Positions 12,001 to 18,000 of a DNA stretch of 64,000 nt are shown one piece after another. This stretch comes from Escherichia coli. GTDB taxonomy: Bacteria; Pseudomonadota; Gammaproteobacteria; Enterobacterales; Enterobacteriaceae. Made by a program: the position numbers. The stretch is from NCBI RefSeq assembly GCF_045037415.1, contig NZ_CP173440.1, one strand, 5' to 3'. Every line of letters starts with the position of its first letter. Positions within the stretch are counted from its first letter, which is position 1.

Positions 12001-15000
12001 GAGAAGCGGGAAGGCCGCGAGGCCGAAATTGGCTGCTAGCTTTTCCGTGAAAATACTCTTGCTCATATGGGGTAGTATTATATCAAGCGCAATGGCTGCC
12101 GGCATGCTTACTGATACATCAATAAGCAGCTTATTGTTAGCCACTTTAATGTCAGGAAGCTTAAGCTCTGTTAGTGTTTTGGCTATTCTCTCTCCTCTTG
12201 GAAGACTGGTTGAAAGAGCCAGGAATATTTCCAATAACCCATTAAGTCAATCCCTCTACACTGGGCGCACCGATGAGTTTGGCCAAATAGAGTTTGCTTT
12301 ACGAATGATGCAAGCTGAAACAGGCGCCATAGTAGGTCGCATAGGTGATGCATCAAATCGGCTTAGCGAACACACCCGAGGCCTACTAAAGGATATTGAG
12401 TCAAGCAATGTACTTACAGTTGAGCAGCAGGCAGAGACAGATCAAATAGCAACGGCAGTAAACCAAATGGTGGCAAGCATTCAAGAGGTTGCGAGCAATG
12501 CACAGCATGCTGCAGATGCGGCCGGAAGAGCAGACACTGAGACGGCATCTGGCCAGCGTCTGGTAGCCCACACAAGCCAGTCAATCACTGCCCTTGAAGG
12601 TGAAATTAGGCAAGCCACTCAGGTTATTCATGAGCTTGAAGGTCAAAGTAACGAGATATCAAAAGTTCTTGACGTTATACGAGGGATCGCCGAGCAAACG
12701 AATTTGTTGGCACTCAACGCAGCAATTGAGGCCGCGCGTGCTGGTGAGCAGGGGCGTGGTTTTGCTGTTGTCGCCGATGAGGTTCGCAGTCTTGCTGCTC
12801 GCACACAGCAATCGACAACGGATATTCAAAGCATGATCAGCGCTCTACAAGAGCGAGCGCAATCCGCTGTTACAGTCATGGAGCAAAGTAGTCGGCAAGC
12901 GCACACGAGTGTAGCTCACGCAGAGGAAGCAGCTACAGCTCTTGATGGAATTGGCCAACGCGTTAACGAAATTACCGACATGAACGCGCAAATAGCGACT
13001 GCGGTCGAGCAGCAGGGAGCAGTAAGTGAAGACATAAACCGCAGTATTATCAATATACGCGATGCTGCTGATACCAATGTACAGACCGGGCAGAATAATT
13101 TGCAAAGTGCGAAATCTGTCGCTCAGTTAACTAGCGCTCTGAGCGAACTGGCAAAACAGTTTTGGGAAAAACGAGGATAACGCTTTTCAGTATCTCGACA
13201 GGGATAACTTACTTTACCATCGGTTATCCCTTTTAGCCGCACAAATTTTAGCCATGGCTTTTCAGGAAGTCAGGGCTATCAGAATGGCCTTAGAAAGCCT
13301 AGTCAAAGAGCTGTCACGAGAACACCGTTAGCTTAGCGTACGATTTTTTCCGAATTCTGCGGTTCCCCCTTTCATGGCTTTTCAGCTGAGTAATTCTCTC
13401 AATAAGCCATCTGAAATTACTGTATGACATTCTATCCTCTACAAGACATTTTAATCATTTGTGTTTGGTAATAAATTTAAAAGTTCGCCAGGTAATGTCT
13501 CGTCTTCTAGTAGCATAAAGTTCCCATCCAGAAACTCTAAGTTAATATATTCTCTGTATAGTTGAATATACTGATTAATGGTGTAACATAAGTTATTACA
13601 GATGATGCTACAGTTTTCTCCCCATAAGTCGTGCTCTTTCTGAAGGTTTTCATGCATTTCATAGGGTTCATTTTTTTTCCAGCTTTTTAAAACCATATAT
13701 CCTCTTCGCCCCATTTCCATATATCTAAACTCCATGAAATGTTTTTCAAGAGCAAGAATCCATGGGTACATTGCTTCAATTGCTTCTTTAAAACCCGGAA
13801 TATCATACGTTTGTTGATTACAAATGCCGACAATTTTCCTCAAATCCCTTAAAGTATCAGCTTCAATATAATTGGCAGACAAATTAGTGACAAAGAGGCC
13901 TGGCTGATCTAAAGGTAAATGCCTGACTAGGTAGTTATGTATAACCATTTCTTTCTTATATGAGGGCGTCTCGACATTCAAAAATGTTTTTAACTTTGAT
14001 GCTGGTAATTTCATTGCTAAACGGTGAAGGCTCGAAGAGCTGAAAACATCTGCGTGTTCTAACTTATAATCTTCTTTAATTTTCGCAAGAGTGGTATATA
14101 TCTCTTTTGGAAACCCCTGTTCTTTATCATTGATAACCGCATAAAAAACTTTAAACTCGCAAGACTCATTCCATGATTCTTTTATTTTTTCAACATCTGC
14201 TTTCATTTTTTTTATTGCAAATTTTATTGTTTCGCGATTTAATTCCTCCGGAGCGTATACTTGATAATATTCCCCTCGCTCTGGAATATAACCATCGTTA
14301 CCGCCATCACCTTTTCTTCCCCAAGGTTTGACCTTCCTGAATTTTTCAGGGTAAGATAACTCCATTACGGTTTCAAATAGTCTTTGATATTCTACACCGT
14401 TGCTACGGAGTATTTCTAAACGCATACGTGCCCAAAAATCTGACATATAAAAATTTCCTCGAAAATAGCAGATCTCTAATGTTTATCTATTCCTTATCAT
14501 CTTTTATTGGGAAAAACAACCTCAACGCATTAACTACCGAAAGTAAGCTTAAACGGGTGTGAAGGCCGTAACCATTTCCATCCAGATATAGCGAGACCAT
14601 TGTTCACATCCCACAACTGAACGAGGCCCAATTTAGCAATCCACCACGCAGAGAAAGTAAAGGAATCTTATGGCATAGATGCACGTAAGTGGTAAGGTAC
14701 TGGGCATCTACAAAACCTTATTTCTAAGCCATCGAGCCAGTCCGGTGTCCAGTATGAGTTCGGCAAGCCTGATGGGGCCAATCATAGTGACTCCTTCAGC
14801 ACGAAGGTCCTCACTCAATGTCCCTCGATGCCAGACAAAGAACATTCGAGCATAGCTGTCACTGGTCTGGAACAGTGACAGATACTCAGAGAATACAGAC
14901 GGGTCAGCAACAGACTTCACTTGCACAAATGCCCGTTCGCCGGTAGTGGGCAGTTCAAGCTCAATGTCTACGGTCTTCTGTGTCCTCCCAAGGCACCCGG

Positions 15001-18000
15001 TTCTTCTCCATCCGCTGGCGGAAAAAATCAGATCTACCAGCAATTCAAAGTCCTGCCAGGTAAGTAAACTACACAGCCTCGTAATAGCCTTAAGGTACTG
15101 AGCTTCAGCAATATCCGCGTCTTTGATTTCCGGCGATTGCTCGTCGTTAATTTTCCGCAGGGCGTAATCGGCCAAACGCACATCGCAGATGGTACCCCGG
15201 TAACTCTGTGTAGCGAGCAAAGCACCGCTAAGGACGCTGTGGGAGAGAAGGTTTCCGGCCAGACTATGGTTGTGCCATCCGTTCACAGTGGGGCGGATCC
15301 TGCTGCCATCATCCAGTTCTGTGACTTCCCCGGAAGGCTGACACCAATACAATAATCCCTGGCTGAAAGTTATGAACAGCATATCGGGGGTGGCTGTGTA
15401 AAATGTCCTTATCTGCCTGACATCACTGGTGGCAGTGGACTGGTTATATTTCCTCTCTTCTAACCAGACTTTATTGACTTCTTCCCACTTTCCCTCAAGA
15501 CACATCTGATGGGGTGTTTTGTCGTAACCAAACCTAATAATGCCAGATGTCAGGCACTCACGTTCCCATTCGCCTCCCTCTCCCAGCTTGATGTATTTAA
15601 CTGCAGTAGCCCGAATCTTTTCCAAAATACAATCACTCCGTTAAACGAATATCCAGACAGAATAGGAGGTTCTGTCCAGCGCCCACAAAAAAGCCACTTT
15701 CGCGGGGTGTGTCTTATTTTTTCGCGACCAGATGAACACCTTCCGCTTTATCGGCGGCCAGCTGAATAAGCCCATCATACTCTTCAATCACATGATCATG
15801 ACCATGTACGGACCACTCACAGCTCTGACATTTAATCCCAAACCGCACCTCTCCGGAGTCGCAGCTCACTACTATAACCTTTGACAGACACCCACTGGGT
15901 TTCACGTTGTACTGAAGCTCGGCGTTCATATCAAACCAAACTTTATCGATACGAGTCTGTAGCTTCGCCTGAAAATCCGGGCGTGTTTCCGCCATCCTGA
16001 CGGCTTCAACAGATAATACCTTATATTTGCCCTGCTGAAGTGGCACGCCAGGCCAGCGGCGTATGGCGGTGTCTGTCCAGAGACGGGAGTTCTTAAGTTG
16101 GTAGACGGTGATCCATTTTTCTGACCATTCATAAAATTTCTGGCATAGCAGCTTCTACAGCAAACTTTCGGTCACCAATTAAATCCCCTGGATTTTACCC
16201 ATACCTGCTCTTCCCTGGAATGTCGTTAATATCCACGGTATCAGGTCAGAGCTGTAACGACCAGCAGCGCCAGTGGAAATAGTCCGGCCAGTACCGGCTC
16301 CTTACCCCGGATTGATGTCTACTGTATGCGATAAATTTGGGAAAAACTGGCGATGGCCATTCTTCTGATTCTGATCGCCGGCAAGCGTGTCAGGTAGCAA
16401 AAGAGCGAACGTAAGACAACATACCCTTGAGGGTCCTGACCTTCAACGTGCCCGACCCGGCCCCCGCCGCGCGGACGAAAAAAAGAGAAAAAATAAAAAA
16501 AAAGAAAAAAAGAATATGCCGAAAATGTGCACAGTCGCGACCCACGCAGAGCGTGGCGCTCCGGGGCAAAGGCTTTGCAGGACTATAAGGCATGTTGTCT
16601 TACGTTTTGAGTGTGATGGTTACGAGCCCACCAGCTTTCATGAATTGTCCCGCCGGGTGGACTGCTATAAAGTGCATACCAGCACTGCAGCCCCTGCCGG
16701 TGATGAAGAATAATTCCGTTCAGGCGAGTATTGAGCAAGACCTTTACTACGTATTAAAACCTGGTACTCCGGGATGACGATGCCTGAGGTGCTTACCACC
16801 GGGAGAAGCAATTCGTTTATGGCGCCAGCAGCTGGTACCTGGCAGAGTTAAGTTCTTATCGCAAAGGATGATAAAAATGAGCCATGGCAAATGTGAGCCG
16901 ACAAACACGAATGCCGCCGATTACAAGCTGTACGCGCGATTCGATGCTGGTGAAACGCTTGAAAGCGTTTTAGCCTCTCCTCCGACCACGAAGCACAATA
17001 AAGTAACTTCTGAAGGAAACATCAGGACTGAACACAGAATGTGGATAGCGTGGAGAAAGAAGCATCCCAGACCACTCTGATTATCAGTGACGATTAATAA
17101 GGATAAAACATGCGAACGACAAGTATCACCCTGTGTCTGGTTTTGGCGAGTTTTGGTGTATCCGCTAAAATCCTTGCAGACCCAGACCTTACTTACCAGG
17201 CAAATAAAACGTGTGCTAAACGAGATGAACTGGAACTGAAAGTCCCTTTAGAAGCCAATAATCCCTACTCTCCCACATGGGGTTTGGACAAGGGCATGGT
17301 GCAGGCCACAATTGACGCACTGAAAGAAAATCCAGACATCGCCCCGACTGACTCTGTAGCCTGCCAACAGGCTGCAATAAAACAGTATCGGGCTGGGCAA
17401 AAACACTACAGTAAGCTCAGGTAGCTGCCGTGATGCCCACCAGCTGAAACCTGTGTGTGGTATAAAAACCCCGTAGCGCTGGTGCAAAACAGACCAGCGC
17501 ATTCCAGTTCTCAATCCCCTTCTGTGATGTAGGCCCCTGTCGCATTCAGACCTGAATAACCGTGCAGGGAAACATGTCAGTAAGCCATCTGGATACAAAA
17601 ACTGGTGGTATAGCCACTTTAGCTTAAAGCTAATGTATGCGTACATTAGTTTTAAGTTTATGTTATTTACCCTTCTCCCTTCCTGGATGCCTTAACCTGG
17701 GTCTGATAGTTGCGCTTTACCCGCTCAATTTCCGCCAGAGTTGCCGCCCAGTGCAGCCCTGCGGCGTGACGATATCTGGTTGCCATTTTTTCAACGGCCT
17801 CCGGAGTGCTGTCATCGCTGCGGTGCTGCCGTCCCTTCACCCCGAAAATTTCCACTATAAGCCACTGGCTACCGGTTCTGCCGAACAAGGCCTGACACAG
17901 CCGCCTCACGGCAAGCGGGGTCAGATCCGGGTCGGGATCATACGCGATGGTGGCAAAAATAAAACGCAGCATCTCAGAGGTTTTGTAGCGTTTTACCGCT

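What the first reader, a model, noticed from the sequence alone, without database searches (positions are those of the whole stretch)
13451..15625. Two tandem genes with Mrr-like restriction endonuclease motifs next to the island junction
The 305-aa protein has a C-terminal Mrr_cat-like segment (FELLVDLIF...VDIELEL...FVQVKS). The downstream 331-aa protein has an N-terminal GDGGNDGY...YYQVY segment resembling the same fold but lacking the canonical lysine. The remaining domains of both are unassigned. Paired nuclease-fold proteins of unknown specificity are typical of uncharacterised defence or abortive-infection modules.
Basis: partly seen in the sequence, partly recalled or inferred. Interest (0 to 1): 0.6.

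Follow-up and report, generated by a model that had tools for sequence, protein, structure and literature searches.

The report
Two unrelated nuclease genes, not a pair

Summary

A has a confident model (pLDDT 92). Its C-terminal Mrr-like nuclease keeps an invariant E194/D220/Q235-x-K237 site. Its N-terminal half matches YTH/EVE readers at fold level, which gives an MspJI-like layout. A is the likely product of a modification-dependent (type IV) restriction gene. The family has over 1,100 members and is distantly related to PADLOC candidate PDC-S02.

No independent lineage carries both genes. A sister plasmid (A 94% identical) lacks B at the same slot, and a syntenic contig (B 71% identical) lacks A. 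GC content is 50% for A and 35% for B.

Overall: two new members of known kinds, of modest interest. No activity has been tested.

The parts
14708..15625 (-). Gene A (305 aa, WP_004026570.1): a single-gene cassette encoding a PUA-like reader domain fused to an Mrr-like PD-QxK nuclease.
15131..15625 (-). A, residues 1-165: N-terminal alpha/beta domain with a PUA-superfamily (YTH/EVE-like) fold, the putative modified-base reader. Invariant residues include I12-K-L-G15, G18, W20, E21, Y34, W47, W94, C95 and W117.
14711..15064 (-). A, residues 188-305: Mrr-like PD-(D/E)xK nuclease domain. Catalytic candidates are E194 (15044-15046), D220 (14966-14968), Q235 (14921-14923) and K237 (14915-14917).
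14447..14707 (.). 261-nt spacer between A and B. It is homologous neither to the DNA upstream of the B relative in L013 nor, beyond about 90 nt past A's stop, to the DNA downstream of the A relatives.
   Evidence: Similarity boundaries at 14458 for B and at 14618-14699 for A. No promoter or terminator signal above chance.
13451..14446 (-). Gene B (331 aa, WP_004026572.1): a single-gene cassette encoding an orphan ABC-3C/Lamassu-type nuclease-fold effector domain joined to an unrelated helical C-terminal domain.
13967..14446 (-). B, residues 1-160: FokI/Mrr-like PD-(D/E)xK-fold effector domain with a non-canonical site. Key residues are D47 (14306-14308), N50-D51-G52, Q62-V-Y64 (Y64 at 14255-14257, in place of lysine), K80 (14207-14209), D84, and N106-D107-K108 (14123-14131).
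13454..13966 (-). B, residues 161-331: helical C-terminal domain shared only with a small subgroup (P0122, P0132, P0135, P0136, P0138, P0143, P0147, P0230, L029-L031). It is not a CTD10.
13332..13369 (-). 38-bp Tn3-family terminal inverted repeat. It marks the resistance-island/backbone junction, 81 nt downstream of B's stop codon.
   Evidence: Exact single match. The pDETEC13 backbone similarity starts at 13370. The flanking 185 bp occur in more than 3,000 plasmids. Naming it Tn1721/Tn1722-type rests on my memory only.
15714..16202 (-). Decayed backbone gene upstream of A. It is homologous to orf101 of L013 but carries two in-frame stop codons, and the annotated 93/110-aa ORF is a chimeric remnant. 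It is not part of either cassette.
   Evidence: tblastn 61% identity. Translation shows the stop codons. A terminator-like hairpin at 15653-15679 lies between it and A.

Best explanation
The locus holds two independent single-gene nuclease cassettes. They lie next to each other in a variable cargo slot of a large IncHI-type Klebsiella plasmid backbone, between the RepB replicon and a TerY-P-like cluster.

Gene A most likely encodes a type IV (modification-dependent) restriction endonuclease.
- Shown: a confident two-domain model; an invariant E...D...QxK Mrr-type site; fold-level matches of the N-terminal half to YTH/EVE readers and of the whole protein to MspJI and AspBHI; no adjacent methyltransferase in any context; residence in defence islands and mobile elements.
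- Inferred: the N-terminal PUA-like domain binds a modified base in incoming DNA and positions the nuclease to cut it. The modification recognised is unknown.

Gene B is a stand-alone relative of the effector subunit (LmuA-type) of ABC-3C/Lamassu systems.
- Shown: its N-domain has a FokI/Mrr-like fold and is homologous to effectors encoded in canonical effector, MC6 middle-component, ABC-ATPase operons; its C-terminal domain is a different module; no sensor genes are nearby.
- Inferred: B cuts DNA using a rearranged active site, with K80 or K108 replacing the missing beta3 lysine. Its own C-terminal domain would control activity through oligomerisation or trigger binding. This follows from the way LmuA is activated by CTD-mediated tetramerisation and FokI by dimerisation.

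The adjacency of A and B reflects the history of one plasmid lineage, not a functional unit.
For: Independence of the two genes:
- tblastn finds both genes only in the source lineage.
- A relatives at 94%, 87%, 82% and 80% identity are followed by the TerY-P kinase gene, an IS3 element, ParB/ParA and an unrelated 231-aa ORF respectively.
- The B relative at 71% identity sits in a syntenic backbone without A.
- Nucleotide similarity stops within 12-90 nt of each coding sequence.
- GC is 50.1% for A and 35.1% for B; GC3 is 0.546 and 0.322.
- hhalign of the two family profiles gives probability 0.2%.
- A's neighbours in different lineages share no similarity with one another.

Gene A:
- Alignment invariants; Pfam Mrr_cat at family level; AF2 pLDDT 92.
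- 9 of 10 family members hit PADLOC PDC-S02 colinearly.
- Neighbours include AbiH, Gabija, an AAA/S8-protease pair and conjugative-element cargo, with no methyltransferase.
- PUA-plus-nuclease fusions are established modification-dependent enzymes, and MspJI is an SRA-like domain plus a Mrr-like PD-QxK domain (PMC6765204; PMC12707154).

Gene B:
- 20 of 40 relatives carry CTD10.
- Canonical ABC-3C operons at L016, L027 and 19 of 26 viral-contig loci.
- The full-length B-type subgroup is stand-alone in pDETEC13, L013, L017 and L029-L031.
- A P2-like Klebsiella prophage carries a single-gene relative.
- In the island-free backbone the next gene is convergent, so the island insertion removed no same-strand partner.
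- LmuA activation model: bioRxiv 10.1101/2025.04.02.646746.
Against: - No activity has been tested for either protein.
- A's own Pfam Mrr_cat hit is only E=0.0063.
- Klebsiella and E. coli hosts are Dam+ and Dcm+ (my own knowledge). A modification-dependent enzyme must spare those marks, and its specificity is unknown.
- B lacks the canonical catalytic lysine (Tyr64), so nuclease activity is an inference.
- One B-type relative (P0138) is followed 13 nt downstream by a 1,866-aa STAND-like NTPase gene. The B-type C-terminal domain may therefore normally need a partner that is absent here.
- Co-transcription of A and B cannot be excluded, because no terminator or promoter was detected in the spacer.
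Confidence: 0.6

Rival explanations
1. One reading: A and B together form a two-gene defence or abortive-infection module in which two nuclease-fold proteins cooperate.
For: The genes share a strand and are 261 nt apart. No terminator was detected between them. They are always together in about 90 near-identical Klebsiella plasmids.
Against: - Those plasmids are one clonal backbone (>=99% identity), so they count as a single observation.
- Every independent lineage separates the genes.
- The same slot in a sister plasmid holds A alone, and a syntenic contig holds B alone.
- GC content differs by 15 points.
- The cassette boundaries hug each coding sequence.
Confidence: 0.06
2. A is not a modification-dependent restriction enzyme. 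It is an abortive-infection or toxin-type nuclease whose N-terminal domain senses something else, such as RNA, a phage protein or a nucleotide signal.
For: - YTH and PUA domains are classically RNA binders.
- A is distantly related to PADLOC PDC-S02, a candidate of unknown mechanism.
- It neighbours AbiH and toxin-antitoxin-rich islands.
- The N-domain has no sequence-level link to any characterised DNA reader.
Against: - The closest whole-protein structural matches are the modification-dependent enzymes AspBHI and MspJI.
- A PUA-family domain plus a nuclease is an established modification-dependent architecture (PMC6765204, PMC12707154).
- No antitoxin-like or immunity partner is conserved next to A.
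Confidence: 0.2
3. B does not act alone. It works with a sensor encoded elsewhere (a chromosomal LmuB/LmuC-type or STAND NTPase), or it acts as a decoy that interferes with the host's Lamassu-type anti-plasmid defence.
For: - Most N-domain relatives are subunits of three-gene ABC-3C systems.
- One B-type relative is followed by a giant STAND-like NTPase gene.
- Lamassu/DdmABC is cited as an anti-plasmid and anti-phage system (PMC10586767 abstract), and B sits on a plasmid.
Against: - B's C-terminal domain is unrelated to CTD10, the part that would dock to LmuB/LmuC-type partners.
- Six B-type proteins are stand-alone in different mobile elements.
- No such partner gene is present in the 64-kb window.
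- Every family-invariant residue is retained in B, which argues against a dead decoy.
Confidence: 0.15
4. B's N-domain is catalytically inactive as a nuclease, because the lysine of the (E/Q)xK motif is lost. It serves as a DNA-binding or scaffolding module.
For: Tyr64 occupies the canonical lysine position, and the family has an aromatic residue there throughout. There is no Pfam nuclease hit.
Against: - The substitution is family-wide and includes effectors of intact ABC-3C operons, which must have an output.
- D47, D51, Q62, K80, D84, N106, D107 and K108 are invariant or nearly so.
- Catalytic residues are known to migrate within PD-(D/E)xK enzymes (my own knowledge).
Confidence: 0.15

Closest known systems
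MspJI/AspBHI family of modification-dependent restriction endonucleases (compared with A)
   Different: There is no sequence-level relationship: the A-family profile finds no PDB chain. A is about 150 aa shorter. Its reader resembles YTH/EVE more than SRA. Specificity and oligomeric state are unknown.
EVE-HNH and PUA-HNH enzymes such as VcaM4I and TspA15I (compared with A)
   Different: The nuclease in those enzymes is HNH, not PD-(D/E)xK. There is no sequence similarity.
PADLOC candidate system PDC-S02 (compared with A)
   Same: A single-gene candidate of about 300-aa profile length. 9 of 10 A-family members match its HMMs colinearly over most of their length (E 1e-6 to 6e-3).
   Different: Scores are only 14-26 bits, and A itself reaches E=0.0055, so A is at best a remote relative. 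The ten papers that mention PDC-S02 appear, from their titles and abstracts, to be surveys; I did not open them.
LmuA, the effector subunit of Lamassu / ABC-3C systems (compared with B)
   Same: An N-terminal nuclease-fold effector domain followed by a helical C-terminal domain. The N-domain is homologous to PADLOC LmuA model PDLC03852 and to proteins that NCBI names 'ABC-three component system protein', encoded in effector, MC6, ABC-ATPase operons.
   Different: B's C-terminal domain is not an ABC-3C CTD. No LmuC/MC or LmuB/ABC-ATPase gene is adjacent or anywhere in the window. B's effector domain was not matched by any Pfam model, so it is not the Pfam Cap4 nuclease type, and it lacks the canonical lysine.
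FokI cleavage domain and Mrr-like nucleases AF1548 and LlaBIII (compared with B's N-domain)
   Different: The lysine of the D...(D/E/Q)xK motif is Tyr in B. Extra invariant residues K80, D84 and N106-D107-K108 are present.

Membership tests
Mrr_cat / PD-(D/E)xK nuclease (gene A, C-terminal domain) | Significant match to the family profile (Pfam PF04471) | tested here: inconclusive
   A itself scores E=0.0063, 17 bits. At family level 23 of 39 homologues score E<=1e-3 and 39 of 39 score E<=0.1, with a best of 3.5e-5.
Mrr_cat / PD-(D/E)xK nuclease (gene A, C-terminal domain) | Catalytic signature E (helix 1) ... D (beta2) ... (E/Q)xK (beta3) | tested here: met
   E194, D220, Q235 and K237 are invariant in 39 sequences.
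Mrr_cat / PD-(D/E)xK nuclease (gene A, C-terminal domain) | Restriction-endonuclease-like alpha-beta-beta-beta-alpha-beta fold | tested here: met
Type IV / MspJI-like modification-dependent restriction enzyme (gene A) | N-terminal modified-base reader of the PUA superfamily (SRA/EVE/YTH/ASCH) | tested here: inconclusive
Type IV / MspJI-like modification-dependent restriction enzyme (gene A) | Sequence homology to characterised family members (MspJI, AspBHI) | tested here: not met
   A search of all PDB sequences with the A-family profile returns no nuclease at E<=10.
Type IV / MspJI-like modification-dependent restriction enzyme (gene A) | No cognate methyltransferase; solitary gene | tested here: met
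   No methyltransferase lies next to A in 9 independent contexts. The neighbours of A are unrelated to one another.
Type IV / MspJI-like modification-dependent restriction enzyme (gene A) | Cleavage requires a modified base in the substrate | not testable with these tools
   This needs biochemical or phage and plasmid restriction assays.
PADLOC PDC-S02 (gene A) | Match to the PDC-S02 HMMs | tested here: inconclusive
   A scores E=0.0055, 14 bits. 9 of 10 homologues score E 1e-6 to 6e-3 and 14-26 bits, colinear over most of the protein.
Lamassu / ABC-3C effector LmuA (gene B) | N-terminal effector domain homologous to that of system-encoded effectors | tested here: met
   Hits to LmuA model PDLC03852: B at E=0.0074, relatives at 4e-8 to 9e-5. 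Relatives with 33-43% identity lie in canonical operons.
Lamassu / ABC-3C effector LmuA (gene B) | C-terminal ABC-3C CTD that docks the effector to the sensor complex | tested here: not met
   There is no CTD hit for B, while 20 of 40 relatives carry CTD10. hhalign of the B-type C-terminus against the CTD10 group gives probability 0.4%.
Lamassu / ABC-3C effector LmuA (gene B) | Adjacent middle-component (LmuC/MC) and SMC-like ABC ATPase (LmuB/DUF2326) genes | tested here: not met
   None is present in the window or in the island-free backbone. By contrast 19 of 26 viral-contig relatives have both.
Canonical PD-(D/E)xK active site (gene B, N-domain) | Lysine in the (D/E/Q)xK motif on strand beta3 | tested here: not met
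   The motif reads Q62-V-Y64. This position is Y, F or H in all 40 aligned sequences.
Canonical PD-(D/E)xK active site (gene B, N-domain) | Restriction-endonuclease-like fold with conserved acidic residues | tested here: met
   The two genes occur together only in one clonal plasmid backbone. They are apart in every other context.

The most novel reading that the evidence does not exclude
The B-type subgroup consists of B, its 71% relative, the relative at the edge of a conjugative element, and L029-L031 (the P2-like prophage gene shares only the N-domain). It would be a self-sufficient single-protein defence or plasmid-competition factor. In this reading a Lamassu/ABC-3C-type effector has been freed from its SMC-like sensor and coupled to a new C-terminal sensor or oligomerisation domain, and it cleaves DNA with a rearranged PD-(D/E)xK site in which the catalytic lysine has moved to K80 or K108. 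A more speculative variant is that, carried on a plasmid, B counteracts the host's Lamassu-type anti-plasmid immunity.
Probability: 0.12. Interest if true: 0.6.

Novelty: new member of a known kind. Interest (0 to 1): 0.3.

Why it matters
These genes sit on the backbone of large multidrug-resistance plasmids, some carrying NDM carbapenemase genes, that circulate in clinical Klebsiella pneumoniae and have reached E. coli.

If A is a working type IV restriction enzyme, it could shape which phages and which competing plasmids can enter strains that carry the plasmid. It would also add a widespread reader-nuclease family (more than 1,100 members across Alpha-, Beta- and Gammaproteobacteria) to the enzymes that detect modified DNA.

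B shows that an effector domain typical of Lamassu/ABC-3C systems also circulates as a solitary gene on plasmids, conjugative elements and P2-like prophages. This raises the question of how such a nuclease-fold effector is controlled without its sensor.

For genome annotation, two adjacent nuclease-fold genes should not be called a 'system' without checking co-occurrence in independent lineages.

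Tried and rejected
Searches that gave nothing useful:
- Single-sequence searches were only marginal: Mrr_cat E=0.006, PDC-S02 E=0.0055 and LmuA E=0.007, with spurious NCBIfam, PHROG and PDB hits. Family alignments were needed.
- Profile searches of PDB sequences with both family alignments found no solved homologue.
- hhalign of the A family against the B family tested whether the genes are paralogues. They are not.
- No paper in the library mentions either accession number.
- A has no homologue in 50,697 phage records.
- Kaur et al. 2020 (eLife) turned out not to describe ABC-3C systems. 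The ABC-3C description was taken instead from papers that cite Krishnan et al. 2020.

Hypotheses tested and rejected:
- The 231-aa ORF that follows A in the 80% relative might be a diverged B. It shows no similarity.
- A might have some other conserved partner. The neighbours of A in 9 contexts are mutually unrelated and hit no NCBIfam family.
- The resistance-island insertion might have deleted a downstream partner of B. In the island-free plasmid pDETEC13 the next gene is convergent and belongs to the TerY-P-like cluster, and no remnant of the DUF2971 gene seen in L013 is present.
- B's C-terminus might be a diverged CTD10. It is not.

Left inconclusive:
- The promoter and terminator scan of 13100-16400 showed nothing above shuffled controls, so transcriptional linkage is undecided.

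Full report
OBSERVATION

A is 14708-15625 on the minus strand (305 aa, TTG start). B is 13451-14446 on the minus strand (331 aa). They are separated by 261 nt. The quoted motifs are all present. In RefSeq copies of the same plasmid backbone they are WP_004026570.1 and WP_004026572.1, both 'hypothetical protein'.

The stretch is carried at 99% identity or more by about 90 large (180-460 kb) Klebsiella pneumoniae plasmids and a few E. coli plasmids. The rest of the window is an IncHI-type conjugative backbone with trh/tra genes, Ter, RepB and others.

Both genes are under purifying selection. dN/dS is 0.10-0.20 for A against four relatives and 0.14 for B against its 71% relative.

The 'island junction' is real. 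A 38-bp Tn3-family inverted repeat lies at 13332-13369. Similarity to the island-free plasmid pDETEC13 starts at 13370, 81 nt beyond B's stop codon.

GENE A

A belongs to a large, tightly conserved family. More than 1,174 homologues were found, nearly all about 304 aa long, in Alpha-, Beta- and Gammaproteobacteria. Some are named 'restriction endonuclease' by their source.

In an alignment of 39 members (51-87% identity to A) the residues E194, D220, Q235 and K237 are invariant. This is the Mrr-type E...D...QxK signature. Pfam Mrr_cat is marginal for A itself (E=0.0063). It hits 23 of 39 members at E<=1e-3 and all 39 at E<=0.1.

The AlphaFold2 model is confident (pLDDT 92.2).
- Foldseek against the PDB returns PD-(D/E)xK nucleases: EcoT38I, Bax1 and Cap4.

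The tool does not report aligned ranges. I attribute the YTH/EVE hits to A's N-terminal half (residues 1-165) for three reasons.
- The aligned lengths nearly equal a whole YTH domain.
- The N-terminal secondary-structure order fits an EVE/YTH-type barrel. This last point is my own inference.

No sequence profile links this domain to any Pfam, NCBIfam or PDB family.

The resulting layout is a PUA-superfamily reader plus a Mrr-like PD-QxK nuclease. That is the layout of MspJI-family enzymes and, more generally, of modification-dependent restriction endonucleases (PMC12707154; PMC6765204).

A-family members also match the PADLOC candidate PDC-S02 colinearly but weakly: 9 of 10 members, E 1e-6 to 6e-3.

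GENE B

B's own close family is tiny, with 7 hits in the word-indexed search. An exhaustive HMMER scan found 838 proteins that match residues about 6-160 only.

In an alignment of 40 sequences the invariant residues are N50, D51, G52, Q62, P66, K80, D84, N106 and D107. D47 and K108 are nearly invariant. The position of the canonical lysine (Tyr64) is aromatic or His in every sequence.

No Pfam model covers the N-domain. The PADLOC LmuA model PDLC03852 is hit by B's relatives (E 4e-8 to 9e-5) and marginally by B itself.

Evidence that the N-domain is an effector module of conflict systems:
- 20 of 40 relatives carry Pfam CTD10, the 'C-terminal domain 10 of the ABC-three component systems'.
- Their genes lie in operons of effector, MC6 middle component and DUF2326 ABC ATPase. 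This is seen at L016, in an Enterobacter kobei plasmid annotated that way by NCBI, and at 19 of 26 loci fetched from viral contigs.
- Other relatives are about 1,270-aa fusions to TPR repeats and a 'PIN-TPR-GreABC' domain.

B itself differs. Its C-terminal domain is shared with only a small subgroup and is unrelated to CTD10 (hhalign probability 0.4%).

That subgroup is stand-alone in:
- pDETEC13, where the next gene is convergent;
- L013;
- the edge of a conjugative element beside its integrase;
- three viral contigs, L029-L031.

The exception is P0138, which is followed by a 1,866-aa STAND-like NTPase gene. A P2-like Klebsiella prophage carries a single-gene relative of the N-domain between its virion-morphogenesis and baseplate genes. 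The window holds no LmuB, LmuC or STAND gene.

ARE THEY A PAIR?

They are not. The evidence is:
- tblastn over all fetched loci finds both genes together only in the source backbone.
- The nearest independent A relatives are followed by other things. The 94% relative (pKP-14-2-131-NDM-1) has the same RepB...A...TerY-P synteny, with 283 nt between A and the kinase gene and no B. The 87% relative is followed by an IS3 element, the 82% relative by ParB/ParA, and the 80% relative by an unrelated 231-aa ORF.
- More distant A relatives lie beside AbiH, an IS66 element, conjugative-element cargo, or Gabija and an AAA/S8-protease pair.
- The 71% B relative lies in a contig whose upstream gene is syntenic with window 15942-16654, yet A is absent there.
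- Nucleotide similarity ends within 12-90 nt of each coding sequence.
- GC is 50.1% for A and 35.1% for B.
- The two family profiles are unrelated.
- In PLSDB, 116 plasmids hold an A homologue. Of the 23 below 99% identity, none of the listed B hits falls in the same record.

The roughly 90 plasmids with both genes are one clonal backbone and count as one observation.

MECHANISM

Shown: fold, motifs, conservation and genomic context.

Inferred for A: the PUA-like domain reads a modified base in foreign DNA and the Mrr-like domain cuts. The specificity is unknown, and it must spare the host's own Dam and Dcm marks.

Inferred for B: it is a DNA-cleaving effector with a relocated lysine (K80 or K108), controlled by its own C-terminal domain. 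The analogy is with LmuA, which the LmuBC complex holds as a monomer and which becomes active on CTD-mediated tetramerisation (bioRxiv 10.1101/2025.04.02.646746). Whether B needs a partner encoded elsewhere is open.

COMPARISON AND NOVELTY

A works like an MspJI-type or PUA-nuclease modification-dependent enzyme but is not a sequence member of any characterised family. B works like an LmuA effector but fails two defining features of LmuA membership, namely an ABC-3C CTD and adjacent LmuB/LmuC genes.

Both are new, uncharacterised members of known kinds. The 'paired nuclease module' is not a real unit. Interest is modest. The most interesting open point is how a solitary Lamassu-type effector with a non-canonical active site is regulated.

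Noticed in passing
window 10843-13369: The right end of the resistance island consists of three parts: an IS26 copy (inverted repeats at 10843-10856 and 11649-11662), a methyl-accepting chemotaxis gene whose 5' end IS26 has cut off (11624-13180), and a 38-bp Tn3-family inverted repeat at 13332-13369. From memory this looks like the orfI end of Tn1721/Tn1722. The last 185 bp occur in more than 3,000 plasmid records. A second IS26 copy lies at 3953-4772.
   Followed up: partly
window 15714-16202 (minus strand): The gene upstream of A is a decayed, chimeric remnant. Its 5' part is 61% identical to orf101 of contig L013 but carries two in-frame stop codons, and its 3' part has no counterpart there. 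RefSeq annotates only a 93-aa ORF.
   Followed up: partly
L023 (pDETEC13) 1295-7631; L025 6201-10912: In island-free relatives the slot next to B (or next to A) is flanked by a TerY-P-like cluster: vWA, TerD, vWA, TerY-C, a PP2C phosphatase, and a kinase or HhH-domain protein. In the window this cluster has been displaced by the resistance island.
   Followed up: no
window about 33331-37600 (minus strand): A cluster of a 654-aa vWA protein, a DUF3150 protein and an AAA ATPase. It resembles the vWA-MoxR ternary conflict systems described by Kaur et al. 2020. A toprim-domain gene lies beside it and a UvrD-like helicase is at 40308-42131.
   Followed up: no
window about 42400-46400: A Phd/YefM-RelE/ParE toxin-antitoxin pair followed by two TnpB genes that flank an IS200/IS605 tnpA, according to the RefSeq annotation of the matching E. 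coli plasmid.
   Followed up: no
window 23624-25111 (plus strand): A group II intron reverse transcriptase/maturase gene (ltrA), next to a tyrosine recombinase gene and an Hha/YmoA-family regulator gene.
   Followed up: no
L013 2467-3225: The 71% relative of B is followed 20 nt downstream by a DUF2971 gene (252 aa). This gene has no counterpart in the window or in pDETEC13, so it may be another cargo gene or a lineage-specific partner.
   Followed up: partly
L019 1303-6903: A B-type relative (P0138, 352 aa) is followed 13 nt downstream by a 1,866-aa protein with weak NPHP3_N and AAA_22 (STAND NTPase) hits. This could be an uncharacterised effector-plus-STAND two-gene system.
   Followed up: no
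L028 4989-6032 (Klebsiella phage ST147-VIM1phi7.1 gp20): A P2-like prophage carries a 347-aa protein with B's N-domain (40% identity) and yet another C-terminal domain. It is a single inserted gene between the virion-morphogenesis and baseplate genes.
   Followed up: partly
L010-L012 5505-5993: In Methylorubrum, the A homologue is preceded by a 162-aa ORF with no family hits, only 8 nt upstream. The locus is a defence island that also holds Gabija-like OLD-TOPRIM and UvrD genes and an AAA/S8-protease pair.
   Followed up: no
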